The notes: a model not told the origin generated them from the sequence alone. 64,000 nucleotides of DNA from a virus (IMGVR_UViG_3300045988_154953), one strand, 5' to 3'; shown: positions 10,267 through 56,840, counted from the stretch's first letter. A program made the numbers and translations.

Positions 10267-12867
10267 ATGAATGGATTAAACAAAAATGAGGTTCTTGAAA
10301 GTAGAAGAACTTATGGAAGTAATAAGCTTCCAGAACCTAAAATGAAGAAATGGTATGATTTTGCTATACAAGCATTAACAGAAAAAATTACATTAATTTT
10401 AATCGCAATTGCAGTTTTACAGTTAGTTCTTGGAATAATTGGAGTTTCGGAAATTTCAACTCCAATTATGATTATTATCGTACTTGCAATCGTAACAATA
10501 CTTGGTATAAAAACAAATCTTGGAGTACAAAGATCAGCTGCCGAATTACGAGCGAGAACAGCAACCAGATATTGTGATGTAATTCGTAATGGAGAACTTC
10601 AAACAATAAATAAAGATGAACTAGTAGTTGGTGATCTTGTATGTGTGAGAATGGGACAAGAAATATTTGCAGATGGTTATTTGATTGAAGGTAAAATTTC
10701 AGTAAATAACGCTGCTATTAATGGTGAAACAAAAGAATGTAAGAAAACACCAATTGAAGGATACAAACATATAAAAACAACATCTACAGATGCTTATACA
10801 AATCAAAACTGTTTATTCGCAGGAACTACAGTTATGGCCGGTGAAGGTAAAATGATTGTTACAGATGTTGGTGTTAATACTATAAATGGTGATACACTTG
10901 TTAAAATGCAGACTCTTGAAGCACCTAAAACAGCTCTTGATATTGCACTTGATAATTTATGTGATTTTATCTCAAAATGGGGTACAATTGCAGCATTTGT
11001 AGCATTTGTTATTCTCATGATAACTAGTGTCATGCAAGTTGGTTTTGTGGAATATTTTAGTGGTGATATTCTTGATATTATTCATAAAATTGCATTGAAT
11101 TTTTCTGTAGCAGTAACAATTATTGTAGCTGCTGTACCAGAGGGTCTTCCAATGATTGTCAAGCTTGTTACAAAACAGAATGTTAATACAATGGAAAAAT
11201 TTAATATTCTTGCAAAAAATCCTGGAAAGATTCCAGAACTTGCTTATGTTGATATCATTTGCACAGATAAAACTGGTACATTAACAACAGGAATTATGAC
11301 ACCAAAGAAAATCATTGATGGATATGGAAATGAAGTTGATCAGAAATCAATTCTTTGGAGTAATATTAAAGATAATATTTGTTTAAATAATAGTGCTGCG
11401 TTTGATTCAGATGATAATATTACAGGCGGGAATTCAATTGACAGAGCACTTCTTGGACTGGTTTCTTCGGAACAATATAATGAAATCATTAACAGATATT
11501 CTGTTAAATTAAAACAGGTATTTAGTAGTGAAAATAAGTATTCTGCATTTACATGTTCTGATGGAGTTACATATTATAAAGGTGCTCCAGAAAAACTTAT
11601 TGACTCATGTACATCAGTTTTAAATTCTGGAGTAGAAATATTTTCTGATAACAACAAAAAGAAATTATATGAACATATTAAGGAAATGACAGAAAAGTCA
11701 ATGAGATGTATTGCTTTAACAATGAGTAATGAAGATTTGGTTGAAAATCAGCTTCCAAATAATATGACGTTTCTTGGTGTTATTGGAGTAGTAGATCCTG
11801 TAAGAGATGAAGTACCTGATGCTGTTAAAACAGCTCATGAAGCGGGTATACAGGTAATTGAAATTACAGGTGATTGTCTTGAAACAGCGAAAGCAGTTGC
11901 TGCGGAATGTGGAATTTACAAAAACGGTGATCTTGCCATTACAAATGATGAGTTTGAAAAAATGTCTGATGATGAAGTTAAATTAATCATTCCTAGATTG
12001 AGAGTTATTTCAAGATGTTCACCAAATACAAAATTAAGACTTGTAACTATTGCTCAAGAAGTAGGAAAATCAGTTGCCATGACAGGTGATGGAGTTAATG
12101 ATTCACCAGCATTAAAGAAAGCAGACGTTGGTTTTGGAATGCAAAGCGGATCTGATGTAGCAAAAGAAGCATCAGACATTATATTGACAGATGATAATTT
12201 TGCAAGTGTTGTAAAAGCAGTCGAACTTGGCAGAACATTCATGCACAATATTATGATGTTCCTTGAGTTTCAGCTCCCTATTAATATTTCACTTTTAATT
12301 TTGAGCGTAATTTATCCTATCATTGCGACAGGTGCATTACTTGCTTCTGTTCAAATTCTGATAATTAATATTATCATGGATTCTTTGAATTCATTATCAT
12401 TTGGTGGTGAGCCACCGAAAGAAGAATATATGCTAGAGAAACCTATTAAAAAAGGATCTGGACTTTTTATTAGAGGAGCAAAGAAACGAATTGCTGTTAG
12501 TACGATCACGTTTATTGTTTTATATGCGATTATTACATTTACTCCAATTAAGAATATGTTTTCGTCAGAAACAGAAGCTATGACCGCAAGATTTGCATTA
12601 CTTTGTTTTATGGCTGTGTTCAATGGGTTTAATATCCGTACAGAACATATGAATTTATTTAAAGGAATCGGAAAGAATAAGTTGTTTTTATATATTGCAA
12701 TTGGAATTTTTGTAATGACGATTGTTTTATGTAATGTTGTAGGATCATTCATTAAAGTGACTCAGTTGGATTCAATACATTGGTTAACAATTATTGCATT
12801 ATCATTTATTGTTATTCCAGTTGATCTTATCAGAAAGGTAATCGACCGTAAAACTAAGGAGGCATAA
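10267..12867 (+). CDS. P-type ATPase, Ca2+-ATPase-like (P2 type)
   Basis: DKTGTLT phosphorylation site, TGD, GDGVNDSPALKKADVG hinge, about 10 TM segments. Confidence 0.9.
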   Translation: MNGLNKNEVLESRRTYGSNKLPEPKMKKWYDFAIQALTEKITLILIAIAVLQLVLGIIGVSEISTPIMIIIVLAIVTILGIKTNLGVQRSAAELRARTATRYCDVIRNGELQTINKDELVVGDLVCVRMGQEIFADGYLIEGKISVNNAAINGETKECKKTPIEGYKHIKTTSTDAYTNQNCLFAGTTVMAGEGKMIVTDVGVNTINGDTLVKMQTLEAPKTALDIALDNLCDFISKWGTIAAFVAFVILMITSVMQVGFVEYFSGDILDIIHKIALNFSVAVTIIVAAVPEGLPMIVKLVTKQNVNTMEKFNILAKNPGKIPELAYVDIICTDKTGTLTTGIMTPKKIIDGYGNEVDQKSILWSNIKDNICLNNSAAFDSDDNITGGNSIDRALLGLVSSEQYNEIINRYSVKLKQVFSSENKYSAFTCSDGVTYYKGAPEKLIDSCTSVLNSGVEIFSDNNKKKLYEHIKEMTEKSMRCIALTMSNEDLVENQLPNNMTFLGVIGVVDPVRDEVPDAVKTAHEAGIQVIEITGDCLETAKAVAAECGIYKNGDLAITNDEFEKMSDDEVKLIIPRLRVISRCSPNTKLRLVTIAQEVGKSVAMTGDGVNDSPALKKADVGFGMQSGSDVAKEASDIILTDDNFASVVKAVELGRTFMHNIMMFLEFQLPINISLLILSVIYPIIATGALLASVQILIINIIMDSLNSLSFGGEPPKEEYMLEKPIKKGSGLFIRGAKKRIAVSTITFIVLYAIITFTPIKNMFSSETEAMTARFALLCFMAVFNGFNIRTEHMNLFKGIGKNKLFLYIAIGIFVMTIVLCNVVGSFIKVTQLDSIHWLTIIALSFIVIPVDLIRKVIDRKTKEA

Positions 12868-12868
12868 A

Positions 12869-13645
12869 ATGGGATTATTTGGTAAATTATTCAAAGGGAA
12901 CAAAGTTGATACGAAAGAAAATGAAGCTATACTAAAAAATAGCACAGTTAGTCAAAACGTGATTGACATGTCTAAGTCATCAGAAAACTTAAATAAAGTT
13001 CTGATCAATATGTCTAAAACCGGAAAAATTGATATGACAAAACATGTTGCACGAGTTGCACTTGCTATGGATTATTCTGGCAGTATGTATAATTTGTATG
13101 ACAATGGATCTGTACAGAATGTTATCACAAGACTTCTTCCTATCGCATTGAAATTCGATGATAATGGTGAACTTGAAGCTTGGTTGTTTTCTAATGGTAA
13201 AGAAAGACTTGCTGCAGTAACAACTGAAAATTATAAAAACTATGTAAAAAAAGTAATGATGAAGTCAGGAATGAGAATGGGCGGTACAAATTATGCGCCT
13301 GTATTGGAAGATATGGTGATGTATTATAAAGATATTGAACCAAGCACTGTTCCAGCATTTATCATTTTTATTACAGACGGAGAAAATTTCGACACCGATG
13401 AAACGAATAGAATTATAAAAGAGTTATCAAACTATAATATTTTTATTCAATTTATTGGTATTGGTAATGAAGATTTTAAATACCTTAAATCCTTAGATAA
13501 CATGAAAGGTAGAAAACATGATAATACAGGGTTTACAGCTGTAGAGGATATGAACAAAATGACAGACGAAGAGTTGTACACAGAAATACTTAGACAGTAT
13601 AGTGCTTGGTATGAACGTAGTAAAGGAGTAAATAAATATGAGTAA
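12869..13645 (+). CDS. vWA domain protein (TerF/TerY-like)
   Basis: MIDAS motif DYSGSM. FITDGEN motif. Confidence 0.75.
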   Translation: MGLFGKLFKGNKVDTKENEAILKNSTVSQNVIDMSKSSENLNKVLINMSKTGKIDMTKHVARVALAMDYSGSMYNLYDNGSVQNVITRLLPIALKFDDNGELEAWLFSNGKERLAAVTTENYKNYVKKVMMKSGMRMGGTNYAPVLEDMVMYYKDIEPSTVPAFIIFITDGENFDTDETNRIIKELSNYNIFIQFIGIGNEDFKYLKSLDNMKGRKHDNTGFTAVEDMNKMTDEELYTEILRQYSAWYERSKGVNKYE

Positions 13646-14276
13646 TGTAATTAATATGAGTAAGAATCAGAAAATTAATATGACTAAAGATAATGGTGAG
13701 GCAATTAAGAATTTCTTCATTGGTGTAAATTGGGATCAAAATAGATATGCTGGAGAAGCAGATATTGATTTTGATATCAATGGTTTCTTAACAAATTCTG
13801 ACAGAAAAGTAATATACCCAAAAGATATTGTTAATTATAATACATATAATAGCAACGATTATCCATGGGTTGAATATTCCGGTGATAATTTAACAGGTGA
13901 TAATTCTATAGGTATTACATTTGATGGAAAGCATTATGATGAGTATTTTATTGTACACGCTGATTTATTTCCAAATGATAGAACAGATTTTACTATTTGC
14001 TTAACAATTTATAGAGCGGTTCAAAGATTGCAGAATTTTGGTATGATAAGCAATGCTTCAATGATGATTTGTGATTATGATGATCCAAGTGATAAAAAAT
14101 GGGAGTTTAACCTTTCTGAAGATGAAAAATTTGAAAATTTAAATGCTGTAGAAATAGGAAGACTTTATCGTTACGGTAACGGATTTAAATTTCAAGCACT
14201 TGGATCAGGATATGTCGGTGGAATGACAGAGCTGTTCAAAAACTTTGGATTAGATATTGATGAAGGTAGGGATTGA
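13638..14276 (+). CDS. TerD-family stress protein
   Basis: GDNLTGD signature (TerD Ca2+-binding motif) and IGVNWD motif. Confidence 0.75.
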   Translation: MSNVINMSKNQKINMTKDNGEAIKNFFIGVNWDQNRYAGEADIDFDINGFLTNSDRKVIYPKDIVNYNTYNSNDYPWVEYSGDNLTGDNSIGITFDGKHYDEYFIVHADLFPNDRTDFTICLTIYRAVQRLQNFGMISNASMMICDYDDPSDKKWEFNLSEDEKFENLNAVEIGRLYRYGNGFKFQALGSGYVGGMTELFKNFGLDIDEGRD

Positions 14277-14279
14277 TAG

Positions 14280-15011
14280 GTGGCTGCAATTATAATTGTT
14301 ATTACCATTATTATAGTTGGTGTATTATTTTTCACAAAGACAGGCAAAAGATTGAGACTTAGAGCGTCAGGCACAGCAGAAGAAATGATAACAAAAGATG
14401 CTGCAACACCAAATGGAGCTAAAGCACACTATAATGCCGTTATTTCAAAAAAAGAAGAAGAATATCAGAACGTAAACAAATTTTATACTGAAACGCTTGG
14501 AAACATTAAATTCTATGAAACACAATTGCGTTCATTGCAAAAAGAAAATATGCAGTTAAACCTTAATATTAATAATTGTGTTGAGAAAAACGATGATAAT
14601 GGTGCTAAAGTATATTTAGGTCGTCAACAAGAAGTAAATGATAAGATTGATATTATCAAAAATACTTTAGTTGAATTACGAAGAAATTCTGAGCTTCAAA
14701 AGGAAAATTTAGATACATTATATGAAAATATTAATAATTTAAAGTCCGAAAAGGAAACTTCAGTTTTGACTCTTGAAGCAGCTGAGATAACAAAATCATT
14801 AAAATCCGCTCCTGGTGTTTATTCGCAAGAAGAAGATAAAATGCTTGAAAAAGTACGCGATGGAGTAAAGAAAGCTAAGAAAGAAGCAGATGGCGTTAGT
14901 ATCGCTTATGAAAATTCAATGGATGTTCAACAGAAACGTCTTGATAAGAAAATGAAAGATGACGAAGTTAATAGAAAGCTTAAACAACTAAAAGATGCTA
15001 AGAAAAAATAA
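14280..15011 (+). CDS. membrane-anchored coiled-coil protein, PspA/IM30-like (tentative)
   Basis: N-terminal TM helix followed by a long heptad-rich helical region of PspA-like composition. GTG start. Confidence 0.5.
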   Translation: MAAIIIVITIIIVGVLFFTKTGKRLRLRASGTAEEMITKDAATPNGAKAHYNAVISKKEEEYQNVNKFYTETLGNIKFYETQLRSLQKENMQLNLNINNCVEKNDDNGAKVYLGRQQEVNDKIDIIKNTLVELRRNSELQKENLDTLYENINNLKSEKETSVLTLEAAEITKSLKSAPGVYSQEEDKMLEKVRDGVKKAKKEADGVSIAYENSMDVQQKRLDKKMKDDEVNRKLKQLKDAKKK

Positions 15012-15026
15012 ACTAATCAATTTAAC
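15010..15026 (+). promoter_or_regulatory. 17-nt motif copy M7 (AAACTAATCAATTTAAC)
   Basis: Ends 8 nt upstream of the -35 at 15035. Confidence 0.55.
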
Positions 15027-15034
15027 AAAAAATA

Positions 15035-15066
15035 TTGACAGAAAATAATATATATGATATTATAAT
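15035..15066 (+). promoter_or_regulatory. SigA-type promoter of the RNA-array operon
   Basis: TTGACA, 17 nt, TGaTATTAT(AAT). Confidence 0.65.
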
Positions 15067-15096
15067 CATGTCAGCAAGGATAGTTTTTGTAAAATT

Positions 15097-15113
15097 AAAC
15101 TAATCAATATAAT
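15097..15113 (+). promoter_or_regulatory. 17-nt motif copy M8 (AAACTAATCAATATAAT)
   Basis: Exact consensus, about 35 nt downstream of the promoter. Confidence 0.55.
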
Positions 15114-15354
15114 TTCCAAATGGTTTAAAATTTCCATTTGTTGAAAGAATCTGGTGTACGGAGCACGATAAATTGTTTTATTTAATTATAAAATAATTTG
15201 TAAGAAATAAGTTCAATTCTTATTGATTCTTCTTTGGCTTGCTGAAGCCAATCTCATACTTTTCATTCCATATCTTCTTTATAAGCTCTGATCCAGTTTT
15301 GAAGAATACATTGGAAGATGTTCACTTACTCATCTATAAAAAAGTAAGTAATAT

Positions 15355-15437
15355 AGGAGTGTGGTGAAATTGGATAGACACCCCAGATTTTGATTCTGGT
15401 GTCGCAAGACGTGTGGGTTCGAGTCCCACCACTCCCG
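15355..15437 (+). tRNA. class II (long variable arm) tRNA with apparent anticodon UUG
   Basis: T arm GTGGG-TTCGAGT-CCCAC. 3-bp D stem with a 12-nt loop. Anticodon arm CCAGA-TTTTGAT-TCTGG. Variable arm GTC-GCAA-GAC. Discriminator G. A1xC72 mismatch. Confidence 0.6.
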
Positions 15438-15636
15438 CTATGAACAAACTCCGAAGTACAAGGATAGTAGTTCAGAATGGATCCATAAAACAATTAAAAC
15501 ATCAAAAATACGCTGTTTTATTTCTTTATATTTAAATCTCGGTTTGGAGTTTGTAAGAAACAGTCTTTAGGTTACGTTAATATCTAGAAAACTTACCGGA
15601 GTTCGGCACTCTGGAGTGGATGTCTACCACTCAAGT

Positions 15637-15706
15637 TGCACTGCTAATGGATTAGCTGCTAAGTAGTCATTGGCCATGCAGAAAGGTTCGATTCCTTTCA
15701 GTGCAA
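15637..15706 (+). ncRNA. tRNA-like gene with non-canonical D and anticodon arms
   Basis: Acceptor TGCACTG/CAGTGCA. T arm AAAGG-TTCGATT-CCTTT. D region CTAA-TGGA-TTAG. Best anticodon arm GCTAA-GTAGTCA-TTGGC has C at position 37. Confidence 0.45.
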
Positions 15707-15963
15707 TTAAATTCTTTATTTCAGAGAAGTGAATAATCAGCATTAGGCTTAACACAAATGATAAGCATAAACTTGTTGCCAAGTGATTCTTGTAAAAAGA
15801 TTATAGAGTAAACTATTAAAAATCCTGCAAATAATCTCGTAGATCAGAGATTATCAGATATCTAGTCAATAAAAGGCGTTCACGACATCTGACAGAGAAT
15901 ATTAATTATTATGAAATGTATAAAATTAATGCGGATCATTTGCTTAGAATCATGATTCAGGTT

Positions 15964-16026
15964 TGTTCATTGGTGTAAAGGTGCATATCAGAAATGATGG
16001 TTCTGGTTCGACTCCAGAATGAACAA
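15964..16026 (+). ncRNA. tRNA-like gene lacking an anticodon arm (63 nt)
   Basis: Acceptor TGTTCAT/ATGAACA, a D arm, and T arm TCTGG-TTCGACT-CCAGA. The anticodon arm is replaced by ATCA-GAAA-TGAT. Confidence 0.5.
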
Positions 16027-16126
16027 TTATCTCATAAGTAGAAATGAGATGTGAGGACGCTATCCAAAATATAAGAAATAGTAAGCTTATGGATTGCTTG
16101 TACAAATATGCTGAAAATCCACACTT

Positions 16127-16200
16127 AGGAAATTAGCTCAGTTGGTGAGAGCGGCGGCCTTATAAGCCGTGTGTGCTGGGTTCAAGTCCCAGATTTCCTA
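16127..16200 (+). tRNA. tRNA-Ile (anticodon UAU)
   Basis: Full cloverleaf: AGGAAAT/ATTTCCT, GCTC-AGTTGGTGA-GAGC, GCGGC-CTTATAA-GCCGT, CTGGG-TTCAAGT-CCCAG. No encoded CCA. Confidence 0.85.
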
Positions 16201-16387
16201 TTCAATATAAAATAAGTATAAATGAACCATATAAAATATTCATATGTCATTCACTCCTGTTTTTACATACAATCTTTTTGGTTCATTAAATTCTATTTTG
16301 TATTTAGGCGATTTCTGCAATTCAAAGAAATTATAAAGTTATAATTAGACTTAAAATCTAATCGATAAAATTATATCGTCTAGTAAT

Positions 16388-16456
16388 GGCTTCATGGCGT
16401 AAAGGTTAGCGCAATAATCTAGTAATGAGGATCTGGTTCGAATCCAGATGAAGCCA
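16388..16456 (+). ncRNA. tRNA-like gene with an unpaired, shortened anticodon region
   Basis: Acceptor GGCTTCA/TGAAGCC, a D arm, and T arm TCTGG-TTCGAAT-CCAGA. The 19-nt middle segment AATAATCTAGTAATGAGGA forms no stem. Confidence 0.5.
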
Positions 16457-16504
16457 GCAGTATTTATTACTGTAATTCTTTTATATACCCTCCAATACAA
16501 CAGA

Positions 16505-16557
16505 TAGACACTAACAGCAATTTTTACATATGGTATTAAAAATATTTATGGTGTCTA
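16505..16557 (+). ncRNA. stem-closed ACAGCAA element E1
   Basis: TAGACAC (16505-11) pairs with GTGTCTA (16551-57). ACAGCAA at 16514-20. Confidence 0.5.
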
Positions 16558-16563
16558 GAATAT

Positions 16564-16683
16564 GGAAGACGTAGGGAAGTGGCCAAACCCAACAAAGAAT
16601 AGTGGTTAGCTACTTAATCGCTTACAGCAAAGTTAATTGTAAAACAGGCAAGTTTTCGTGAGTTCGAATCTCACCGTCTTCCA
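16564..16683 (+). tRNA. interrupted class II tRNA-like gene (Tyr-like D arm), about 45-nt insertion carrying ACAGCAA
   Basis: Acceptor GAAGACG/CGTCTTC with G-1 and C73. D arm GGG-AAGTGGCCAAA-CCC. Variable arm AAAAC-AGGCAA-GTTTT. T arm GTGAG-TTCGAAT-CTCAC. ACAGCAA at 16624-30. Anticodon not assignable. Confidence 0.5.
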
Positions 16684-16688
16684 AACCT

Positions 16689-16811
16689 CGTCAGATAGTT
16701 TCAATTGGTAAAACACTGCTTAAATCAAATGTGATTAGTTAATTAATCACTAACAGCAATATTCTTATGATGGGCCTGGCAGAACTATAGGTTCGAATCC
16801 TATTCTGGCGA
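16689..16811 (+). tRNA. interrupted tRNA-like gene; the anticodon-stem halves are separated by about 57 nt
   Basis: Acceptor CGTCAGA/TCTGGCG. D arm GTTT-CAATTGGTA-AAAC. Stem CTGCT...GGCAG. Inner hairpin GTGATTA-GTTAAT-TAATCAC followed by TA-ACAGCAA (16753-59). T arm ATAGG-TTCGAAT-CCTAT. Confidence 0.5.
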
Positions 16812-16813
16812 TT

Positions 16814-16870
16814 TAGACGGATACAGCAATTTAATGGATAAGACTTTTAATCTTAATACCAAGCCGTCTA
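16814..16870 (+). ncRNA. stem-closed ACAGCAA element E2 with a Lys(UUU) anticodon stem-loop and no D/T arms
   Basis: TAGACGG/CCGTCTA 7-bp closing stem. ACAGCAA at 16823-29. TAAGA-CTTTTAA-TCTTA at 16839-55. Confidence 0.55.
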
Positions 16871-16877
16871 GTATATG

Positions 16878-16992
16878 AGGAATATAGCTCAGTTGGTAGA
16901 GCATCGGACAATACAAAAAAGAGTCTAGTTATAGACTTGAACAGCAAATTATAAAACTCTGACTGTCGTTGGTTCGAATCCAACTATTCCTC
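16878..16992 (+). tRNA. interrupted tRNA-like gene (Lys-like body); the anticodon-stem halves are separated by 49 nt
   Basis: Acceptor AGGAATA/TATTCCT. D arm GCTC-AGTTGGTA-GAGC. Stem TCGGA...TCTGA. Inner hairpin GAGTCTA-GTTA-TAGACTT followed by GA-ACAGCAA (16941-47). T arm GTTGG-TTCGAAT-CCAAC. Confidence 0.5.
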
Positions 16993-16994
16993 AT

Positions 16995-17059
16995 TAGGTG
17001 CAATTACAGCAAAAAGAAAAGCGTATAATTTGGGATTATAATAGCAAAAACTGCACCTA
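16995..17059 (+). ncRNA. stem-closed ACAGCAA element E3 with a Pro(UGG) anticodon stem-loop and no D/T arms
   Basis: TAGGTGCA/TGCACCTA 8-bp closing stem. ACAGCAA at 17006-12. TATAA-TTTGGGA-TTATA at 17024-40 (G at position 37, as in tRNA-Pro). Confidence 0.55.
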
Positions 17060-17066
17060 GTTTGTC

Positions 17067-17193
17067 AAGTGGGTAGCTCAGTGGTAGAGCACGATAATAA
17101 GATAATGTGTCGAGTACTTTAGTGACACTTACAGCAATTTTTCTTTTTTGCATTTTAAGCACGATGTCGTAGGTTCGAGTCCTGCCCCACTTG
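17067..17193 (+). tRNA. tRNA-Lys(UUU)-like gene with a 55-nt insertion between the D arm and the anticodon arm
   Basis: Acceptor AAGTGGG/CCCACTT. D arm GCTC-AGTGGTA-GAGC. Insertion 17092-17146 contains GTGTC..GACAC-TT-ACAGCAA. Anticodon arm TTTGC-ATTTTAA-GCACG (4 of 5 pairs). Variable loop ATGTC. T arm GTAGG-TTCGAGT-CCTGC. Confidence 0.55.
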
Positions 17194-17196
17194 TTT

Positions 17197-17268
17197 TAGA
17201 TGATAACAGCAATTCACGAAAATATAAACACATTTATTAAACAAGTATAAAAGTTATAAAATCATCTA
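17197..17268 (+). ncRNA. stem-closed ACAGCAA element E4
   Basis: TAGATGAT/ATCATCTA closing stem. ACAGCAA at 17206-12. Confidence 0.5.
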
Positions 17269-17276
17269 GCGATTAT

Positions 17277-17335
17277 AAGACAGTTACAGCAACACTATTA
17301 TATAAAAGACTTAAAATTTAAAACAAAACTGTCTT
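17277..17335 (+). ncRNA. stem-closed ACAGCAA element E5
   Basis: AAGACAGT/ACTGTCTT closing stem. ACAGCAA at 17286-92. Weak Leu(UAA)-like loop CTTAAAA. Confidence 0.5.
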
Positions 17336-17384
17336 GGAATCAAAGTAACTTTACAACAATTTTGGTTCAAAGGAGAATAAATTT

Positions 17385-18938
17385 ATGTTTATGAACGATT
17401 TAAAAGAAACGTTAAATGAAGATTTTAATGAATCTATCACCGAAAATAATGCCAATGGTTATAGAACAACAGGAAAAGAACTGTTGGATATGAACTTTAT
17501 GGTATCTTCGATGAGAAAAATGAGTGATAAACAAATTATTGATAAATTTGTAAAAGCTTTCTATGAAAATAAAATGTATGCAATTAAATGGTTGTATTAC
17601 GTAAGGGATGCTCGTGAGGGAGTTGGCGAGAGAAGATTGTTCAGAGTTTGTATGGAATATCTTGCAAAGAATCATACAGACATTGCAAAAGCCATGATCC
17701 CTTTGACAGCTGAATATGGTCGTTGGGATGACTTATTATCTTTACTTGATACAGAATTAGCTGACAATGTTATTAAATTATTTGGTGATCAGCTTACTGA
17801 AGATATGAAAAACTTGAAATCAAATAAACCTATTTCATTATTAGGTAAATGGATGCCTAGCTGCAATGCATCATCTAGAAAAACTAGAAAACTGGGTGTA
17901 GAGATTGCGGAAAAGCTTGGTATTTCTGAAAGGAAGTATAGAAAGATGCTTTCTGCCATCAGAAAATATCTTGACGTTGTAGAAGTTAAAATGGCTGCAG
18001 GACAATGGGATCAGATTGATTATTCAAAAGTTTCCTCAAGAGCTAATTTAATTTATAATAACGCTTTTCTGAGACATGATGAAGAACGTAGACGTAAATA
18101 CCTTGAAAGCTTGCAAAAAGGCGAAACAAAGATTAATGCCGGTGTATTATTTCCACATGATATTGTACATAAGTATTATAACTTAGATTATTGGCGTATC
18201 AATATTAAAAATTATGATACAGCACTTGAAGAAATGTGGAAGGCATTACCAGATTATGTGAATGGTGCTGGTAATACAATTTGTGTTGCTGATGGGTCTG
18301 GAAGTATGTACACAAGAGTAGGTGGCACAAATGTAATGGCGATTGAAGTAGCAAATGCTTTAGCAATTTATTTTTCCGAAAGATGCTCTGGACAGTTTAA
18401 GGATAATTATATAACCTTTAGTATGAATCCGAAACTTGTTAGTTTTAGTAGAGCTAAATCTTTAAAAGAGAAAATAGAAATTGCTTTAAAACACACCGAA
18501 TGTGCTAATACGAATATTGAAGCCGTATTTGATTTGATTCTTAAAACAGCAATTAGAAAAAATATGAAACAGGATGAATTACCGCAGAATATATTGATTT
18601 TATCGGACATGGAGTTCGATAGTTGTGTTGAATACAATAGAAGTAGCAGATGTAATCTCAATAGACCTACCAAAAGATTATTTAAAGTATTTGAAGAAAG
18701 ATATGCTGAACATGGCTATAAACTTCCAAGATTAGTATTTTGGAATATTTGTAGTAGAACTGGTACAATTCCTGTAAAAGAAAATGATTTAGGTGTAGCA
18801 CTTGTAAGTGGTTTCAGTCCGGCAGTTGTTAAGATGGTACTTAGTAATAGTACAGATCCACTTGAATGTTTACTTGAACAGTTGAATTCAGAAAGATATC
18901 AGCCGGTAGAAGATGCAATCAAGGATTTAGTTGCTTAA
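17385..18938 (+). CDS. DUF2828-type protein: helical N-terminal domain plus C-terminal vWA (Ro60/TROVE-like architecture)
   Basis: N-terminal TENNANGY..TG..LLD motif typical of DUF2828. MIDAS motif DGSGSM at about aa 305. RBS AAAGGAG. Confidence 0.7.
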   Translation: MFMNDLKETLNEDFNESITENNANGYRTTGKELLDMNFMVSSMRKMSDKQIIDKFVKAFYENKMYAIKWLYYVRDAREGVGERRLFRVCMEYLAKNHTDIAKAMIPLTAEYGRWDDLLSLLDTELADNVIKLFGDQLTEDMKNLKSNKPISLLGKWMPSCNASSRKTRKLGVEIAEKLGISERKYRKMLSAIRKYLDVVEVKMAAGQWDQIDYSKVSSRANLIYNNAFLRHDEERRRKYLESLQKGETKINAGVLFPHDIVHKYYNLDYWRINIKNYDTALEEMWKALPDYVNGAGNTICVADGSGSMYTRVGGTNVMAIEVANALAIYFSERCSGQFKDNYITFSMNPKLVSFSRAKSLKEKIEIALKHTECANTNIEAVFDLILKTAIRKNMKQDELPQNILILSDMEFDSCVEYNRSSRCNLNRPTKRLFKVFEERYAEHGYKLPRLVFWNICSRTGTIPVKENDLGVALVSGFSPAVVKMVLSNSTDPLECLLEQLNSERYQPVEDAIKDLVA

Positions 18939-18943
18939 AAAGA

Positions 18944-19008
18944 ATAGATACGCACAGCAATTAAGAAGTTTGGTTTAGGTTCACATCCTTTTTCAAATAT
19001 TTGTATCT
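18944..19008 (+). ncRNA. stem-closed ACAGCAA element E6
   Basis: TAGATAC/GTATCTA closing stem. ACAGCAA at 18953-59. Starts 6 nt after the stop of 17385..18938. Confidence 0.5.
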
Positions 19009-19037
19009 AGATAAAAAATAGAAACGTTAAAAGTTAT

Positions 19038-19064
19038 GCGTCAGTAAAGTTGCTGACGCATTTT
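19038..19064 (+). terminator. Rho-independent terminator ending the RNA-array operon
   Basis: GCGTCAG-N8-CTGACGC followed by ATTTT. Confidence 0.65.
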
Positions 19065-19081
19065 ACAAATAGGAGAAGTAA

Positions 19082-19372
19082 ATGGTTTTTTGTAGTGATG
19101 ATAGAAAAGAATTAATTGTGACATGTAAATGTGGATGCCAGGATTCAATTCATGTGAAAATAGATAAAGAAAGTCCAGACTATTATTGTTTGGTTACTTA
19201 TATGAATGGTAATTGGAGTAGAGATCAAGGAGATAAGATTCATAGAACAATTGGAAGAAAACTTAAGAAAATCTGGAGTATTATTCGCAATAAAGATTAC
19301 TATTATTCAGATATTATTATGAGAAAGTCAGATTTCAAGATATTAAAAAATTATATTAATGAGATTGAGTAG
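19082..19372 (+). CDS. hypothetical protein
   Basis: ORF with RBS AGGAGAAG. Confidence 0.6.
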   Translation: MVFCSDDRKELIVTCKCGCQDSIHVKIDKESPDYYCLVTYMNGNWSRDQGDKIHRTIGRKLKKIWSIIRNKDYYYSDIIMRKSDFKILKNYINEIE

Positions 19373-20377
19373 ATGCACATGTTACAAATTTTAGAATTGT
19401 TTGGTGGTATTGGAAGTCCAAGAGTAGCACTTCGCAATTTAGGTATTCCAGTAAAAGCCATTGACTATGTTGAAATTGATGCAAAGGCTGTAAGAAGTTA
19501 TAATGCAATGTTCGCATCGGAACTTCCTTATAAAACACAATCAGTTATTGGTTATAATTTACAACCAGATATCCTTATACATGGGAGTCCATGTCAGACC
19601 TTCAGTATAGCTGGTCATCAAGGTGGATTAACAAAAGAAAACGGTCGTATAAATAGAGGTGCCGGGGCTGATGAAGGATCTGGTTCGCAGTCATCTCTTA
19701 TGTGGGAAACAGTTAATATTATAAAACAAATGGGTGAATGGAAACCTAAAATTGTCATTTGGGAAAATGTAAAGAATATAACAAGCAAATATATGATACA
19801 TAATTTTGTTAAGTATCTTAACGTAATGGAAGAAATGGGATATACAAATTCATATGAATGTCTAGATGCAAGAGATTTTGGAATACCACAAGCGAGAGAA
19901 AGGGTATTTACAATTTCCTGTTTAAATGGCACAAAATTTAATTTTAAAACTTTGAAACATACTAAAATGAGACCTTTACAGAATTTTTTAGAAGATAATG
20001 TTTCTGAAAGATATTTAGTAACGCAGCCAAGTATTCTTTCTACCATCGGCAATACAAAAACGATCAAGAGAGCAACCGTAATTAAAGATTATGTATATAC
20101 AATTACAGAACGTCAAGATAGATGCCCGGCACAAATTATTGATGTTGGAAATGGCAAGTATAGATTTTTAACAGAATTAGAATGTTGGAGATTATTTGGA
20201 TATTCAGATGATGACTATTATGCTGCGGAAGCTGCTAATCCAAAACGTAAGAATGCGATTGTGAATAGAACTTTGTATCGACAAGCTGGTAATAGCATAG
20301 TGGTTCCAATATTTGAATCTATATTTGAACAGTGTTTAGATATATTAAATTATAATAAAGCAACAGTAGAGGAATAA
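19373..20377 (+). CDS. DNA (cytosine-5)-methyltransferase
   Basis: Motifs FGGIGS (I), PCQTFS (IV), ENV (VI), QARERVF (VIII) and GNS (X). Confidence 0.9.
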   Translation: MHMLQILELFGGIGSPRVALRNLGIPVKAIDYVEIDAKAVRSYNAMFASELPYKTQSVIGYNLQPDILIHGSPCQTFSIAGHQGGLTKENGRINRGAGADEGSGSQSSLMWETVNIIKQMGEWKPKIVIWENVKNITSKYMIHNFVKYLNVMEEMGYTNSYECLDARDFGIPQARERVFTISCLNGTKFNFKTLKHTKMRPLQNFLEDNVSERYLVTQPSILSTIGNTKTIKRATVIKDYVYTITERQDRCPAQIIDVGNGKYRFLTELECWRLFGYSDDDYYAAEAANPKRKNAIVNRTLYRQAGNSIVVPIFESIFEQCLDILNYNKATVEE

Positions 20378-25985: not shown

Positions 25986-26354
25986 TTGAGTTGTAAGTAT
26001 CCAGAAAATAGTAGAAGTTATATGTTTTGTATTGGATGTAAAGAAGCAGATTCTTGTTCAAGTTCAACATTCAACATTCCAATGCCAGATAATGTAAAGC
26101 CACCAAAAAATTCTATTCCAACAGCTGCTGAAGCAAAAAATGTAACTGAGTTGGCTATAGAGAATTCTATCACCAAACAATTAGAAGAATTATCATTTAA
26201 AATAAATACAGCAATTCATAAAGGAAAATATGACATTACAAACGATGGTATTTTGGATCTAGAAGTAAAAAGAAGATTAGAAGATCTCGGTTATAATATT
26301 ACAATTGGGAATCAATATAACGAATCATATTATACGATTAGTTGGAAAGGATGA
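25986..26354 (+). CDS. hypothetical protein
   Basis: ORF with TTG start. Its 3' end carries the second copy of a 27-bp direct repeat. Confidence 0.55.
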   Translation: MSCKYPENSRSYMFCIGCKEADSCSSSTFNIPMPDNVKPPKNSIPTAAEAKNVTELAIENSITKQLEELSFKINTAIHKGKYDITNDGILDLEVKRRLEDLGYNITIGNQYNESYYTISWKG

Positions 26355-27054: not shown

Positions 27055-28386
27055 ATGGAGGCTATGAACTGGAACCCGGTATTAAGCAAGTTTGTAGAAA
27101 TTAAAAATGAATTCAAAAAGAAACTTGGATATATAACTTACTATTATACTGAAGGTTACACAAACGAATCTCAAACTTGTTTAGAAAGATGGGTAGAATA
27201 TTTAAATGGTATTAAGCCGTTTAATCAATATCAAGAGTATGCAGATTTGCTTTCATGTCTTGAATTAAATCAATATGGAGATTTTCTTCTTTTAAGATAT
27301 GGAAGATATAGTAACATTTATGATGGTGAAATTGAAAAGTCTGGTGAGGATTTTTGGGATAGATATGAGGGTTTTTACAGAGAATGTAGAAGTATAGTAA
27401 TTGATGTAAAAAATGATTGTATTGTACTTTGCCCATTTCGCAAATTTTTTAATCTAAATGAGTTAGAAGAAACTAGTGAAGAAAACATTAATAAAAGAAT
27501 TGAGAACGCATCACTTATAGAATTTTCAAATAAATTAGATGGATCGATGCAAACAGCTACATGGTACGATGGTAAAATTATTATGGCTGGAAGTCAAGCA
27601 ATAAATCCAGAAAAATCGTGGAGATTACAGGATGGATACAGAATGATTCAAGCGTTGCCTGGATATGAGCAAATGCTTAAAATGCATCCTAACTTTACAT
27701 TTATATTTGAATATATCTCTTTGGCCGATGCTCATGTAGTAAAATATAAAAAAGAGCAAGAAGGTCTATATCTTATTGGTATTAGAGATAATTTAACAGG
27801 ACATGAACTTAGTTATCGTAAGGTGATAGATATTGCTAATCATTTTAATATTCCAACAACGGTATTATTTGATAAAACACTTGGACAAATCTTAAATGAA
27901 TTAGATAACAAAAGTTCAGAAGAAGCAGAAGGCTTTGTTATTAACATTGATGAATATAAAGTTAAAGTGAAATATAATGATTATGTACATATTCATAAAG
28001 CACTGTCTAAACTCTCTTCAATAAATCTTATTATTCGTTCTATTGCAGATGATCAGTACGATGATCTCTTATCTAAACTTCCAGCAGCTTATCATGATAG
28101 TGTAAAAAAAGTAGCTGCTATCGTATTCAGATATATAAAAGATACAGAACGAACTTCTAACGAATATTTTCAGCAAGCTCCAAAAACTAGTCAAAAAGAA
28201 TTCATGATCTGGATTGATAGAAATGTTCCTAAAAAGTTCCGTGGATTTTGTAGGGAATTGTATTTTGGAAACGAAATTAATGTAATTAAATTCAATCAAT
28301 CTGGAGATCCAAAATATTTAAAATTAAATCAAATGGGAGTAAATGATTACTCTACATTATTCACACAGGAGGAAGAAAATGAGTAA
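27055..28386 (+). CDS. ATP-dependent RNA ligase (T4 Rnl1-like)
   Basis: Nucleotidyl-transferase motif I KLDGS and EGFV(I) motif. Size and layout fit phage RNA ligases. Confidence 0.7.
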   Translation: MEAMNWNPVLSKFVEIKNEFKKKLGYITYYYTEGYTNESQTCLERWVEYLNGIKPFNQYQEYADLLSCLELNQYGDFLLLRYGRYSNIYDGEIEKSGEDFWDRYEGFYRECRSIVIDVKNDCIVLCPFRKFFNLNELEETSEENINKRIENASLIEFSNKLDGSMQTATWYDGKIIMAGSQAINPEKSWRLQDGYRMIQALPGYEQMLKMHPNFTFIFEYISLADAHVVKYKKEQEGLYLIGIRDNLTGHELSYRKVIDIANHFNIPTTVLFDKTLGQILNELDNKSSEEAEGFVINIDEYKVKVKYNDYVHIHKALSKLSSINLIIRSIADDQYDDLLSKLPAAYHDSVKKVAAIVFRYIKDTERTSNEYFQQAPKTSQKEFMIWIDRNVPKKFRGFCRELYFGNEINVIKFNQSGDPKYLKLNQMGVNDYSTLFTQEEENE

Positions 28387-29269
28387 ACCTATACTTTGGG
28401 TTATGGTAGGACTTTCGGGAAGCGGTAAGTCAACGATTGCTAAAAAAATTGCTGCTGATAATCCTAATACACTAATAATATCGTCAGATAATATTCGTGA
28501 AGAAATAACCGGTGATTATGAAGACCAGGAACATAACGCAGAAGTATTTAATATTTTTCATGATAGAATTCTCAAGAATCTTGAAAATAAACAGAACGTC
28601 GTAGCCGATGCTACAAATCTTACAATAAAATCCCGTAGATCAATTTTGAATAAAGTGAATGGATTAGATATTGAGAAAATATGTGTTATTATTCCAAAAC
28701 CATTTGAAAAGTGTAAAGAAGATAATTTACATAGAGAGCATCCTGTACCAGAAGATGTATTAAATAAACAGCTCAGAAGATTTCAAGTACCATTTAAAGA
28801 AGAAGGGTGGAATGAAATTAAAATCCATTATTTACAAAAAGATGGATATGAACCAAATGAGATTCGTTTCTTAGATATGGAAAGTTTTGATCAGAAGAAC
28901 CCGCATCATACTATGGATTTACTTGAGCATTGTACACATGCAACAGACATGTTTATCGAAAAACACAAATATTCGCCAGAATTTATAATTGGTGCTTTAT
29001 ATCATGATATTGGTAAGCTGTACACACAAACATTTGATGAAAACGGTATAGCTCATTACTACCAGCATCATGCGGTCGGTTCATATTTGTATTTTACTAG
29101 TATGTATCCAATAGGGAATCCTGTATTAGATACATGTTTTCTTATCAACTATCATATGATGCCATTTAGTTGGGAAAGCGATAAGTCAAAGAAAAAGTGG
29201 AAAAAGATATTTGGTAATTATAAATATCAAATGCTTTTAGATTTTAATGAATGTGACAAGGCGAGATAG
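28379..29269 (+). CDS. polynucleotide kinase (P-loop) fused to an HD-domain phosphohydrolase
   Basis: GLSGSGKST Walker A at the N-terminus. HHTMDLLEH and YHDIGK (HD motif) in the C-terminal half. ATG at 28379 after AGGAGGAAG overlaps the ligase stop. Confidence 0.7.
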   Translation: MSKPILWVMVGLSGSGKSTIAKKIAADNPNTLIISSDNIREEITGDYEDQEHNAEVFNIFHDRILKNLENKQNVVADATNLTIKSRRSILNKVNGLDIEKICVIIPKPFEKCKEDNLHREHPVPEDVLNKQLRRFQVPFKEEGWNEIKIHYLQKDGYEPNEIRFLDMESFDQKNPHHTMDLLEHCTHATDMFIEKHKYSPEFIIGALYHDIGKLYTQTFDENGIAHYYQHHAVGSYLYFTSMYPIGNPVLDTCFLINYHMMPFSWESDKSKKKWKKIFGNYKYQMLLDFNECDKAR

Positions 29270-56839: not shown

Positions 56840-56840
56840 A

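What the first reader, a model, noticed from the sequence alone, without database searches (positions are those of the whole stretch)
16505..19008. Ten copies of a co-varying 'helix strand + 1-3 nt (usually 2) + ACAGCAA' RNA module concentrated in 2.5 kb
ACAGCAA occurs ten times on the + strand, at 16514, 16624, 16753, 16823, 16941, 17006, 17131, 17206, 17286 and 18953. By eye I found only about four scattered copies in the other 61 kb (10558, 26208, 29594, 52457), which fits chance.

In nine of the ten copies, the 7-8 nt lying 1-3 nt upstream of the motif form one strand of a helix. I could not find a clean partner for the copy inside gene F (16624). The helix sequence differs between copies, but the partner strand always compensates.
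- Stand-alone copies, with the partner 40-55 nt downstream and closing the element: TAGACAC/GTGTCTA, TAGACGG/CCGTCTA, TAGGTGCA/TGCACCTA, TAGATGAT/ATCATCTA, AAGACAGT/ACTGTCTT, TAGATAC/GTATCTA.
- Copies embedded in tRNA genes, with the partner just upstream so it forms a capped hairpin: GAGTCTA-GTTA-TAGACTT, GTGATTA-GTTAAT-TAATCAC, GTGTC-N12-GACAC.

Compensatory change across nine of the ten copies argues for a selected RNA (or ssDNA) structure rather than a DNA-binding site. The layout of a 7-nt helix strand, 2 nt, then ACAG mirrors tRNA positions 1-7, 8-9 and 10-13. The embedded form looks like a circular permutation of the stand-alone form (3' strand, loop, 5' strand, ACAGCAA). I know of no described RNA family with this signature.
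Basis: seen in the sequence. Interest (0 to 1): 0.9.

Follow-up and report, generated by a model that had tools for sequence, protein, structure and literature searches.

The report
RNA handles for phage Ro60-like protein
The repeated "helix + ACAGCAA" unit is a real, widespread and apparently undescribed structured RNA that flanks a phage gene for a Ro60-like RNA-binding protein, either alone with an anticodon-loop mimic or grafted into tRNAs, so it is most likely that protein's RNA partner, a new kind of "Y RNA".

Summary
ACAGCAA is strongly over-represented (21 vs 8±3 expected). Eleven + strand copies lie in 16514-18960, and all ten non-coding ones sit next to a 6-10 bp helix. The unit is a conserved RNA module: P1 helix 5'-WAGRCRC/GYGYCUW-3', two nt, unpaired ACAGCAA, then a second helix.

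A covariance model finds all six stand-alone copies here, and 130 more in related loci, all on the gene's strand. Both helices covary.

The decisive context is the gene between the copies (17385-18938, DUF2828+DUF7788). Its predicted fold matches Ro60 over the full length. Modules adjoin this gene in 73 of 80 viral loci and 61 of 80 genome loci. An RNA-only pattern search led back to the gene in 81 of 127 cases, always co-oriented.

Stand-alone modules often enclose an anticodon stem-loop mimic, mostly tRNA-Lys UUU. Embedded modules are the same junction circularly permuted. They either split the anticodon stem of a tRNA or replace its anticodon loop.

Best reading: a new Y-RNA-like family that serves as the binding handle of a Ro60-like protein, carrying tRNA-shaped cargo. 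Binding and function are inferred, not shown. Whether the tRNA-borne copies are spliced out is open.

The parts
15035..15063 (+). Best sigma-70-like promoter (TTGACA-17-TG-TATTAT) at the head of the 2.4 kb non-coding tRNA/module array
   Evidence: 11 of 12 matches, extended -10. Function is inferred only.
16305..16382 (+). Degenerate stand-alone module S0: P1 TAGGCGAT/ATCGTCTA, motif variant CTGCAAT, inner anticodon-like hairpin TTAGA-CTTAAAA-TCTAA (16345-16361)
   Evidence: Sequence. Partial R1 hit at 16343-16371.
16505..16557 (+). Stand-alone module S1 (P1 TAGACAC/GTGTCTA, ACAGCAA at 16514)
   Evidence: R1 35.3 bits, E 9e-7. Helix.
16564..16683 (+). tRNA-like gene A (class II body) with embedded module: capped P1 16601-16622, ACAGCAA 16624-16630. 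No canonical anticodon loop.
   Evidence: ARAGORN with introns allowed. The corresponding tRNA gene in L004 (assigned by its matching acceptor/D-arm sequence; orthology was not tested) keeps a Tyr GUA loop.
16688..16812 (+). tRNA-like gene B with embedded module: capped P1 16731-16750, ACAGCAA 16753-16759. Anticodon stem CTGCT/GGCAG, loop replaced.
16814..16870 (+). Stand-alone module S2 with tRNA-Lys-type anticodon stem-loop TAAGA-CTTTTAA-TCTTA
   Evidence: R1 61.5 bits, E 1e-13.
16877..16993 (+). tRNA-like gene C (Phe-like body) with embedded module: capped P1 16921-16938 (GAGTCTA-GTTA-TAGACTT), ACAGCAA 16941-16947. Anticodon stem TCGGA/TCTGA, loop replaced.
   Evidence: Rfam tRNA 51.8 bits with a 48-nt insertion.
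16995..17059 (+). Stand-alone module S3 with Pro-type loop TATAA-TTTGGGA-TTATA
   Evidence: R1 49.2 bits.
17066..17194 (+). tRNA-Lys(UUU) D with a 55-nt insertion (17094-17148) between nt 28 and 29 of the anticodon stem. Capped P1 17107-17128, ACAGCAA 17131-17137, anticodon loop ATTTTAA 17152-17158.
   Evidence: Rfam tRNA 43 bits; split-stem analysis.
17197..17268 (+). Stand-alone module S4 (P1 TAGATGAT/ATCATCTA)
   Evidence: R1 16.4 bits; helix.
17277..17335 (+). Stand-alone module S5, the last before the gene; it ends 49 nt before the start codon
   Evidence: R1 39.1 bits. The same position is occupied in L002, L004 and many other loci.
17337..17368 (+). Conserved hairpin GAAUCAAA...UUUGGUUC between S5 and the Shine-Dalgarno sequence
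   Evidence: Sequence. Role unknown.
17385..18938 (+). Gene for the Ro60-like protein (DUF2828 + DUF7788/vWA, 517 aa, intact MIDAS D303-S305-S307...T376...D408)
   Evidence: Pfam; PHROG 850 'RNA-binding protein'; model pLDDT 90.6. The top 13 PDB fold matches are all Ro60/TROVE, TM 0.36-0.59, with 0.59 for the best match. Alignment.
18945..19009 (+). Stand-alone module S6, directly after the stop codon
   Evidence: R1 24.2 bits; helix. The same position is occupied in L002 and L004.
19038..19059 (+). Terminator-like hairpin GCGTCAG-N8-CTGACGC followed by ATTTT; probable end of the transcription unit
   Evidence: Read from the sequence. Not called by the scan (short T tract).

Best explanation
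The module is the cognate RNA 'handle' of the Ro60-like protein encoded in its midst. It is the functional counterpart of the Ro60-binding stem of Y RNAs.

Anatomy (shown). A two-helix junction:
- P1: 7 bp, 5'-WAGRCRC paired to GYGYCUW-3'.
- About 2 unpaired nt.
- Invariant single-stranded ACAGCAA and an A/U-rich linker on one strand.
- An A-rich strand ending in AAW on the other side.
- A second helix, P2.

The junction occurs in three topologies:
(i) Stand-alone, 50-75 nt. P1 is formed by the two ends, and P2 is a hairpin that often copies a tRNA anticodon stem-loop.
(ii) Inserted after nt 28/29 of a tRNA anticodon stem. P1 is capped by a GNNA-type loop, and the tRNA's own anticodon stem-loop takes the place of P2.
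(iii) Replacing the anticodon loop of a tRNA-like RNA, whose anticodon stem is P2.

Mechanism (inferred).
- The array 15035-19060 is transcribed as one unit with the tRNAs.
- RNase P and RNase Z cuts at the neighbouring tRNAs release the stand-alone modules as small RNAs.
- The Ro60-like ring binds the semi-conserved P1 helix plus the ACAGCAA strand.
- The resulting ribonucleoproteins display an anticodon loop or a whole tRNA shape.
- The copy 45-50 nt upstream of the start codon may also feed back on the protein's own translation.

Likely role (most speculative). tRNA-centred conflict with the host: bait or shield against anticodon nucleases, or a platform for tRNA quality control and repair together with the phage's Rnl1-like ligase and Pnk/HD enzyme.
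For: Structure:
- P1 was predicted independently by RNAalifold on a MAFFT alignment, with compensatory changes in all 7 pairs.
- P1 and P2 are 96.8-98.4% paired. Covariation is 0.67-0.82, against 0.18-0.22 in shuffles and at most 0.15 when the partner is slid.
- The capped form is 99% paired. It is present at 96 of 162 tRNA-embedded sites, against 4.5% of random positions.

Strand specificity: 130 of 130 hits and 55 of 57 hits lie on the gene's strand.

Linkage to the protein:
- Helix-bearing ACAGCAA counts on + vs - strand are 230 vs 10 in 80 IMG/VR loci (73 loci positive) and 123 vs 7 in 80 GTDB loci (61 positive), at 37-65% protein identity.
- Several 'negative' loci carry variant motifs (TCAGCAA, GCAGCAA, ACAGCAG) at the same place.
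- In a locus at 37% identity, the single module sits between a near-consensus sigma-70-type promoter (TTGACT-17-TATAAT, read from the sequence) and the Shine-Dalgarno sequence.
- Reverse test: an RNA-only pattern found at least 120 viral stretches. In 81 of 127 matches the gene is in the same stretch, 81 of 81 co-oriented, at a median distance of about 45 nt.
- The remaining matches lie in large tRNA arrays.

Protein: confident model. Its 13 best PDB fold matches are all Ro60/TROVE, including a phage Ro60 shown to bind Y-like RNAs encoded upstream of its gene (PMC12135203). Ro60 also tops the profile-sequence search, weakly.

Precedent: bacterial and phage Y RNAs are encoded next to Ro60 and contain a tRNA mimic (PMC4201824).

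Cargo:
- 45 of 161 stand-alone modules hold a 5-bp/7-nt anticodon-type hairpin, against 5.2 in shuffles; 16 of them are CUUUUAA.
- These RNAs lack D and T arms, so the loop is not kept for decoding.
- Three of the four embedded tRNAs in the window have no usable anticodon.
- L024 has both an intact tRNA-Asn and a module-bearing Asn-like tRNA.

Repair genes in the window.
Against: - No binding, expression or processing data exist here. The protein-RNA link rests on genomic association and on analogy with Ro60/Y RNA.
- The module shows no sequence or Rfam similarity to Y RNAs.
- The protein is only a remote fold relative of Ro60 (11-16% identity, TM 0.36-0.59) and does not hit Pfam TROVE.
- Modules also track tRNA arrays, so part of the association with the gene could be indirect.
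- In class-A tRNAs, exact removal of the insertion would restore a perfect tRNA. That is what an intron would look like.
- The alignments used for pair counts were selected by helix-finding scripts or fitted by the model, which inflates the percentage paired.
Confidence: 0.6

Rival explanations
1. A new kind of protein-dependent tRNA intron and spacer signal. The module marks segments to be cut out of tRNA precursors. An endonuclease (unknown, possibly guided by the Ro60-like protein) excises the insertion after nt 28/29, and the phage's Pnk/HD and Rnl1-like ligase rejoin the halves. The stand-alone copies would be processing signals or spent relatives.
For: - In 34 embedded tRNAs, removing the insertion leaves a perfect 5-bp anticodon stem and a canonical 7-nt loop (Asn GUU, Lys UUU, Thr UGU, Ser, Cys). 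Window tRNA D is one of these.
- A heal-and-seal enzyme pair is encoded 9 kb downstream.
- A 40-55 nt arm on the anticodon stem should be incompatible with ribosome binding (established knowledge of tRNA-ribosome contacts).
Against: - It does not explain stand-alone modules that carry their own anticodon-like hairpin.
- It does not explain the class-B tRNAs, where no excision register gives a usable anticodon loop.
- It does not explain the copy in the 5' UTR of the gene in phages where it is the only copy.
- No bulge-helix-bulge motif and no group I intron signal is present.
- The two junction strands are unconserved A/U-rich sequence.
Confidence: 0.15
2. A purely cis-acting leader or operator: the module is a translational feedback site for the DUF2828 mRNA, and the other copies are titrating or duplicated operators without a function of their own as small RNAs.
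For: - A module typically ends 15-50 nt before the start codon.
- In L001 and L085 it is the only element between promoter and Shine-Dalgarno sequence.
Against: - Up to 10-16 copies occur per locus, including copies downstream of the stop codon, copies inside tRNAs, and copies kilobases away within tRNA arrays.
- A selected anticodon-type hairpin is not needed for an operator.
Confidence: 0.1
3. A small self-cleaving ribozyme that punctuates the tRNA precursor and excises itself from tRNAs.
For: - Position between tRNAs and within tRNAs.
- Compact size.
- Small ribozymes linked to phage tRNAs have been reported (from memory, not checked here).
Against: - No hit to any ribozyme family in Rfam 15, even at E <= 5.
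- Only one 7-nt strand is invariant. The opposite strand and the linkers are unconserved, which is too little for a catalytic core.
- The tight linkage to one protein gene is not expected for a ribozyme.
Confidence: 0.04
4. A DNA-level element (miniature inverted-repeat transposon, recombination site, protein operator), or a chance repeat.
For: - Terminal inverted repeats of 7-10 bp.
- At first sight, short direct repeats appear to flank some insertions.
Against: - Strict strand bias (130:0).
- G-U pairs that would be A-C mismatches on the other strand.
- The interior varies while the pairing is kept.
- The apparent direct repeats are explained by the split anticodon stem.
- Motif enrichment is far beyond chance.
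Confidence: 0.02

Closest known systems
Y RNAs and bacterial/phage YrlA-type Y RNAs with Ro60 (Rsr); Rfam Y_RNA; Chen et al. 2014, PMC4201824
   Same: - Small non-coding RNAs encoded next to the gene of a ring-shaped TROVE+vWA protein.
- A stem formed by the 5' and 3' ends, with conserved sequence beside an internal loop.
- A second, modular domain that mimics tRNA.
- Several paralogous RNAs per locus.
   Different: - The protein is a remote fold relative (DUF2828/DUF7788), not a Pfam TROVE member.
- The RNA signature (WAGRCRC helix + ACAGCAA) is unrelated, and no Y RNA model matches.
- The mimic is an anticodon stem-loop, or a complete tRNA with open acceptor ends, not a T/D-arm elbow closed at the acceptor.
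- The handle occurs in three circularly permuted contexts.
- The modules are interleaved with real tRNA genes.
Thermus phage phiLo Ro60 with Yrl1/Yrl2 (PMC12135203; PDB 9KOP, 9L5Y)
   Same: - A phage-encoded Ro60 homologue whose partner RNAs lie just upstream of its gene.
- Among the best structural matches of the window's protein.
   Different: - The Yrl RNAs have the classical stem-bulge-stem with a CGAA motif.
- There are two copies, not an array.
- No tRNA grafting has been described.
tRNA introns (bacterial group I introns in the anticodon loop; archaeal/eukaryal bulge-helix-bulge introns, including non-canonical positions)
   Same: - Extra sequence inside a tRNA gene at or near the anticodon arm.
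- In class A, exact removal restores a canonical tRNA.
   Different: - 40-55 nt, so far too small for group I.
- No bulge-helix-bulge motif.
- The same element also exists free-standing and in a 5' UTR.
- It is tied to a Ro60-like gene.
Phage T4 tRNA repair (Pnkp + Rnl1) against the PrrC anticodon nuclease, and phage tRNAs that neutralise tRNA-targeting defences (e.g. PARIS, PMC11464382)
   Same: - A phage locus that combines tRNA genes, an Rnl1-like ligase and a polynucleotide kinase.
- The commonest mimic is the tRNA-Lys UUU loop, the PrrC and PARIS target (PrrC target from established knowledge; PARIS target from memory of that paper; its only look-up here was for other terms and returned no passages).
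   Different: - No Ro60-like protein or RNA handle is known in those systems.
- A decoy role here is conjecture.

Membership tests
Y RNA / YrlA (Ro60-associated ncRNA) | Encoded adjacent to a Ro60/TROVE-family gene | tested here: met
   Modules flank the Ro60-like gene in 73/80 and 61/80 loci, co-oriented. The protein's fold matches Ro60.
Y RNA / YrlA (Ro60-associated ncRNA) | Sequence/structure match to the Y RNA covariance models (conserved bulged Ro-binding helix) | tested here: not met
   No Y_RNA or related Rfam hit in 14500-19500 at E <= 5. The consensus here is WAGRCRC + ACAGCAA.
Y RNA / YrlA (Ro60-associated ncRNA) | Terminal 5'/3' stem next to an internal loop, plus a distal effector domain that mimics tRNA | tested here: met
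   P1 is formed by the ends, there is an internal loop with ACAGCAA, and the distal part is an anticodon-type hairpin or a tRNA. The kind of mimic differs from YrlA.
Y RNA / YrlA (Ro60-associated ncRNA) | Physical binding to the Ro60 protein | not testable with these tools
   Needs EMSA, RIP or a complex structure.
Ro60/TROVE protein family (for the gene 17385-18938) | HEAT-repeat ring plus C-terminal vWA domain with MIDAS | tested here: met
   The model has pLDDT 90.6. Full-length Foldseek matches go to Ro60 only, at E 1.6e-8 to 2.2e-5. D-x-S-x-S, T and D are invariant or nearly invariant.
Ro60/TROVE protein family (for the gene 17385-18938) | Match to the Pfam TROVE domain / sequence homology to Ro60 | tested here: not met
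   Pfam gives DUF2828, DUF7788 and a weak VWA_2 only. phmmer vs PDB finds nothing. The profile vs PDB gives Ro60 on top, but only at E 0.017.
tRNA (RF00005), for the four host genes of embedded modules | Cloverleaf with acceptor, D and T arms and a 7-nt anticodon loop | tested here: inconclusive
   Acceptor, D and T arms are present in all four. A canonical anticodon loop is present only in 17066-17194 (Lys UUU). The other three have none.
Group I or bulge-helix-bulge tRNA introns | Group I core helices (>200 nt), or a bulge-helix-bulge motif at both splice sites | tested here: not met
   The insertions are 40-55 nt. There is no intron family hit. The junction strands are unconserved A/U-rich linkers. 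The bulge-helix-bulge motif was not searched for formally.
Small self-cleaving ribozymes (hammerhead, twister, pistol, hatchet, HDV-like) | Match to the family's conserved catalytic core | tested here: not met
   No Rfam hit at E <= 5. Only one 7-nt strand is invariant.

The most novel reading that the evidence does not exclude
A large, unrecognised class of phage ribonucleoproteins. A Ro60-like protein carries interchangeable 'bait' RNAs through a portable, circularly permutable RNA handle. The baits are free anticodon stem-loops (mostly tRNA-Lys UUU) and whole tRNAs. The particles would intercept, shield from, or repair the damage of host anticodon nucleases. The same handle grafted into the anticodon stem would also make a new type of conditionally removable tRNA insertion, processed with the phage's own kinase/phosphatase and RNA ligase.
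Probability: 0.25. Interest if true: 0.9.

Novelty: new variant of a known kind. Interest (0 to 1): 0.78.

Why it matters
DUF2828 is a very large family with no known function: about 6,900 clusters at 50% identity, mostly from phages and prophages of gut Clostridia.

This finding gives the family a concrete, testable RNA partner and places it beside Ro60, whose bacterial and phage biology is still poorly understood.

The RNA is unusual in itself. One small junction works in three permuted topologies, and it is the first case I know of (own knowledge plus the negative searches here) of a protein-binding handle built into the anticodon stem of otherwise canonical tRNAs.

If the anticodon-loop mimics are baits, this would be a new phage strategy in the tRNA-centred arms race. 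If the insertions are removed, it would be a new kind of tRNA intron in bacterial viruses. Either outcome can be tested directly with one protein and a 57-nt RNA.

Tried and rejected
- Rfam at gathering and at E <= 5 gave only tRNA hits; no ribozyme, Y RNA or intron family.
- Integron attC-like site: the ends do not fit GTTRRRY (read).
- Transposon-like insertion with target duplications: AGAGA x2 in L004 and AGCACGAT x2 in the window looked like duplications. They are explained by a split anticodon stem and by a coincidence of stem sequences.
- 'Armless mini-tRNA' reading of stand-alone modules: there is no T or D arm and no CCA, and many copies lack the anticodon-type hairpin (116 of 161).
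- Joining upstream and downstream loop pieces of the class-B tRNAs to recover an anticodon: by inspecting the flanking sequences listed, I found no register that gives the same anticodon across the corresponding tRNAs of different loci (correspondence judged by sequence similarity; orthology not tested).
- The search for related loci with the single protein found one locus only; an alignment was needed.
- Literature searches for DUF2828, TROVE+vWA+phage+tRNA, anticodon mimic/decoy, interrupted phage tRNAs and the motif itself found no description of this RNA.
- My recollection that PARIS also targets tRNA-Asn/Thr was not borne out by a look-up.
- The R1 hit at 26199-26254 lies inside an ORF and lacks the AGRC signature, so I treated it as chance.

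Full report
1. The observation

The window is a 30% G+C phage-like genome with nearly all genes on the + strand. Positions 15012-17384 form a 2.4 kb non-coding tRNA array.

ACAGCAA occurs 21 times on both strands, against 8.06 +/- 3.04 expected; no shuffle reaches 21. Nine + strand copies lie between 16514 and 17292. One follows the gene's stop codon (18954, not 18953).

Every non-coding copy is preceded, 0-3 nt upstream, by one strand of a 6-10 bp helix. In L002 the 3' strand of that hairpin reads CACT instead of CGCT, a one-sided change that turns a U-G wobble into a U-A pair.

A degenerate eleventh module with CTGCAAT lies at 16305-16382.

2. It is a conserved RNA family

Relatives of the phage at 75-79% protein identity (L002, L004) have the same array, with different helix sequences that still pair.

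From 32 stand-alone copies in other phages I built a covariance model, R1.
- In the window it recovers all six stand-alone copies at 61.5 to 16.4 bits. The reverse strand of the same places scores 6-11 bits.
- Over 68 sources it gives 130 hits at E <= 0.001, all on the + strand.
- In 80 loci from bacterial genomes, which were not used to build the model, it gives 57 hits, 55 of them on the + strand.

Pairing statistics:
- On the model alignment, 98.4% of cells pair and all 12 pairs show compensatory changes. The covariation score is 0.674, against 0.177 in shuffles and at most 0.144 with slid partners.
- On the plain MAFFT alignment the figures are 96.8% and 0.818 against 0.222.
- RNAalifold predicts P1 on its own.
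- Caveat: the sequences were chosen by helix-finding scripts or by the model, which inflates the percentage paired. The strand bias and the slid controls are the less biased evidence.

The consensus is 5'-WAGRCRC NN ACAGCAA WUUW ... hairpin ... AAW GYGYCUW-3'. P1 is therefore semi-conserved, not freely variable. That pattern is what sequence-specific recognition of a helix would produce.

3. Three topologies of one junction

Stand-alone copies have P1 formed by the two ends and a second helix, P2, as a hairpin.

In 45 of 161 stand-alone copies, P2 is a 5-bp stem with a 7-nt loop that has U at position 2 and a purine at position 6, which is an anticodon stem-loop. Shuffled interiors give 5.2. 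The loops are CUUUUAA (16 copies; tRNA-Lys UUU), CUUGAAA, CUGUUAA and UUUGGGA, among others. The stems covary. In the window, S2 carries the Lys loop and S3 a Pro-type loop.

Embedded copies have P1 closed by a short loop, typically RRGUCUU-GNNA-AAGRCYY, then 2 nt, then ACAGCAA.
- The hairpin is 99% paired in 62 selected examples.
- It is present at 96 of 162 ACAGCAA sites that are followed by a T-loop, against 4.5% of random positions.

Mapping the host tRNAs shows two classes:
- Class A. The insertion sits in the 5' strand of the anticodon stem after nt 28 or 29. The two pieces of the strand together pair perfectly with the 3' strand, and the loop is canonical (Asn GUU, Lys UUU, Thr UGU, Ser, Cys). 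Window tRNA D (17066-17194, Lys UUU, insertion 17094-17148) is of this class.
- Class B. The anticodon stem is intact and the module replaces the loop, and no excision register gives a usable anticodon. Window genes A, B and C are of this class.

In all three contexts the order P1 strand - 2 nt - ACAGCAA - about 10 nt linker - helix is kept.

4. The context that explains it

The gene flanked by the copies (17385-18938) is DUF2828 + DUF7788, with a weak vWA match. PHROGs calls it 'RNA-binding protein'.
- An AlphaFold model from 44 homologues is confident (pLDDT 90.6, pTM 0.88).
- Its 13 best PDB matches are all Ro60/TROVE proteins aligned over the full length, with E from 1.6e-8 to 2.2e-5 and TM up to 0.59. 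They include frog and human Ro60, Deinococcus Rsr and the Ro60 of Thermus phage phiLo. The next matches are isolated vWA domains.
- The MIDAS residues are invariant or nearly invariant.
- Sequence methods barely see the relationship.

Ro60 proteins bind Y RNAs. These are encoded next to the gene in more than 250 bacteria and phages and contain a tRNA-like domain (PMC4201824). The phiLo protein binds two Y-like RNAs found just upstream of its gene (PMC12135203).

5. The RNA and the gene travel together

- In 80 IMG/VR loci found through the protein (37-60% identity), ACAGCAA occurs 371 times on the gene's strand and 35 times on the other. With an adjoining helix the counts are 230 against 10, and 73 loci are positive.
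- In 80 GTDB loci, mostly Lachnospiraceae and other gut Clostridia, the helix-bearing counts are 123 against 7, and 61 loci are positive.
- Several negative loci have variant motifs at the same place.
- In L001 (37% identity) the only module lies between a near-consensus sigma-70-type promoter (TTGACT-17-TATAAT, read from the sequence) and the ribosome-binding site of the gene.
- Reverse test: the RNA-only pattern AAGACACNNACAGCAAN{25,55}GTGTCTT found at least 120 viral stretches. In 81 of 127 matches a DUF2828 gene is in the same stored stretch, always co-oriented, at a median distance of about 45 nt.
- Most of the rest are cut close to an end. Six of the seven with room on both sides sit inside large phage tRNA arrays, on the tRNA strand; the seventh, L184, has no tRNA called in its stretch.

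6. How it most likely works

Shown:
- the structure;
- its three topologies;
- strand specificity;
- linkage to the Ro60-like gene and to tRNA arrays.

Inferred:
- The array is one transcription unit, from the promoter at 15035-15063 to the hairpin at 19038-19059.
- Stand-alone modules start 1-3 nt after a tRNA's discriminator base and end 5-6 nt before the next tRNA, so RNase Z and RNase P would release them.
- The Ro60-like protein binds P1 plus the ACAGCAA strand. This is comparable to Ro60 holding a helix on its surface and a single strand in its cavity (established from the Ro60 structures named).
- The complex then displays an anticodon loop or a tRNA body.

Because stand-alone copies cannot decode, their canonical loops must be kept for recognition by something that reads anticodon loops. 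By parsimony the same may hold for the embedded tRNAs.
- Three of the four embedded tRNAs in the window have no anticodon.
- L024 has an intact tRNA-Asn as well as a module-bearing one.
- The window also encodes an Rnl1-like RNA ligase and a kinase/HD enzyme, the tool kit of tRNA repair.

A role as bait, shield or repair platform against anticodon nucleases is therefore attractive, but it is conjecture.

7. Rivals

The main rival is that class-A insertions are introns of a new kind, removed by an unknown nuclease and resealed by the phage enzymes. Exact excision would restore perfect tRNAs. This does not account for stand-alone copies, class-B genes or the 5' UTR copies, and it could coexist with the main reading.

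A purely cis-regulatory leader, a self-cleaving ribozyme and a DNA-level repeat fit the data poorly.

8. Novelty

No Rfam 15 family matches, and targeted literature searches found no description.

The kind of system is known: a Ro60-type protein with adjacent, partly tRNA-like partner RNAs. This RNA family, its protein subfamily, the anticodon-loop mimic and the grafting into tRNA anticodon stems appear to be new. I file it as a new variant of a known kind. It works like a Y RNA, but it fails the sequence/structure membership test for the Y RNA families.

Noticed in passing
window 15963-16027: tRNA-like gene whose anticodon arm is a 4-bp stem capped by a GAAA tetraloop (ATCA-GAAA-TGAT), so it has no anticodon. 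ARAGORN calls it only at a lowered threshold.
   Followed up: partly
window 16388-16457: tRNA-like gene (Rfam 44.8 bits) with a short, mismatched anticodon arm. In L002 (4974-5044) a similar short tRNA-like gene at the corresponding place in the array has ACAGCAA overlapping the 3' strand of its D-stem.
   Followed up: partly
window 15146-15232: ARAGORN 'tRNA-???' with a long A/U-rich stem in place of the anticodon arm. A similar element is in L002 (about 3630-3720).
   Followed up: no
window 17337-17368: Conserved hairpin GAAUCAAA...UUUGGUUC between the last module and the ribosome-binding site of the Ro60-like gene. It is also present in L002 and L004 and could gate translation or processing.
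   Followed up: partly
window 18546-18552: ACAGCAA inside the Ro60-like ORF, at the same codons in L002 and L004 (7165). It has no adjoining helix and probably reflects a coding constraint (T-A-I).
   Followed up: partly
window 27055-29269: Rnl1-like RNA ligase (27055-28386) overlapping a polynucleotide kinase + HD phosphohydrolase gene (28343-29269): a heal-and-seal RNA repair pair.
   Followed up: partly
window 10267-15011: P-type cation ATPase, TerF-like vWA, TerD and a PspA-like gene directly upstream of the tRNA array: a Ter-type stress or conflict cluster in a phage.
   Followed up: no
window 5421-6128 and 508-1506: A 235-aa TnpB-like protein (OrfB_IS605 + Cas12f-like TNB domain), possibly truncated, and a tyrosine integrase.
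   Followed up: no
window 56003-58310: NAMPT-like nicotinamide phosphoribosyltransferase and a PRPP-synthetase-like gene, suggesting NAD+ salvage, a known phage counter-defence theme.
   Followed up: no
L011 1718, L012 2011, L009 2177, L028 1870 and others: A subclass of embedded modules has a 4-6 bp P1 capped by a 10-12 nt loop with a conserved ACGGNGGCGG-like sequence, in class II-like tRNAs with Cys, Ser or similar loops.
   Followed up: no
L267 7532-7818: A phage tRNA array that contains modules also encodes a tmRNA (tag DEFDYALAA).
   Followed up: no
window 26199-26254: Weak R1 hit (24 bits) inside an ORF. Its helix is AAAAUAA/UAUUUU without the AGRC signature, so it is probably chance.
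   Followed up: partly
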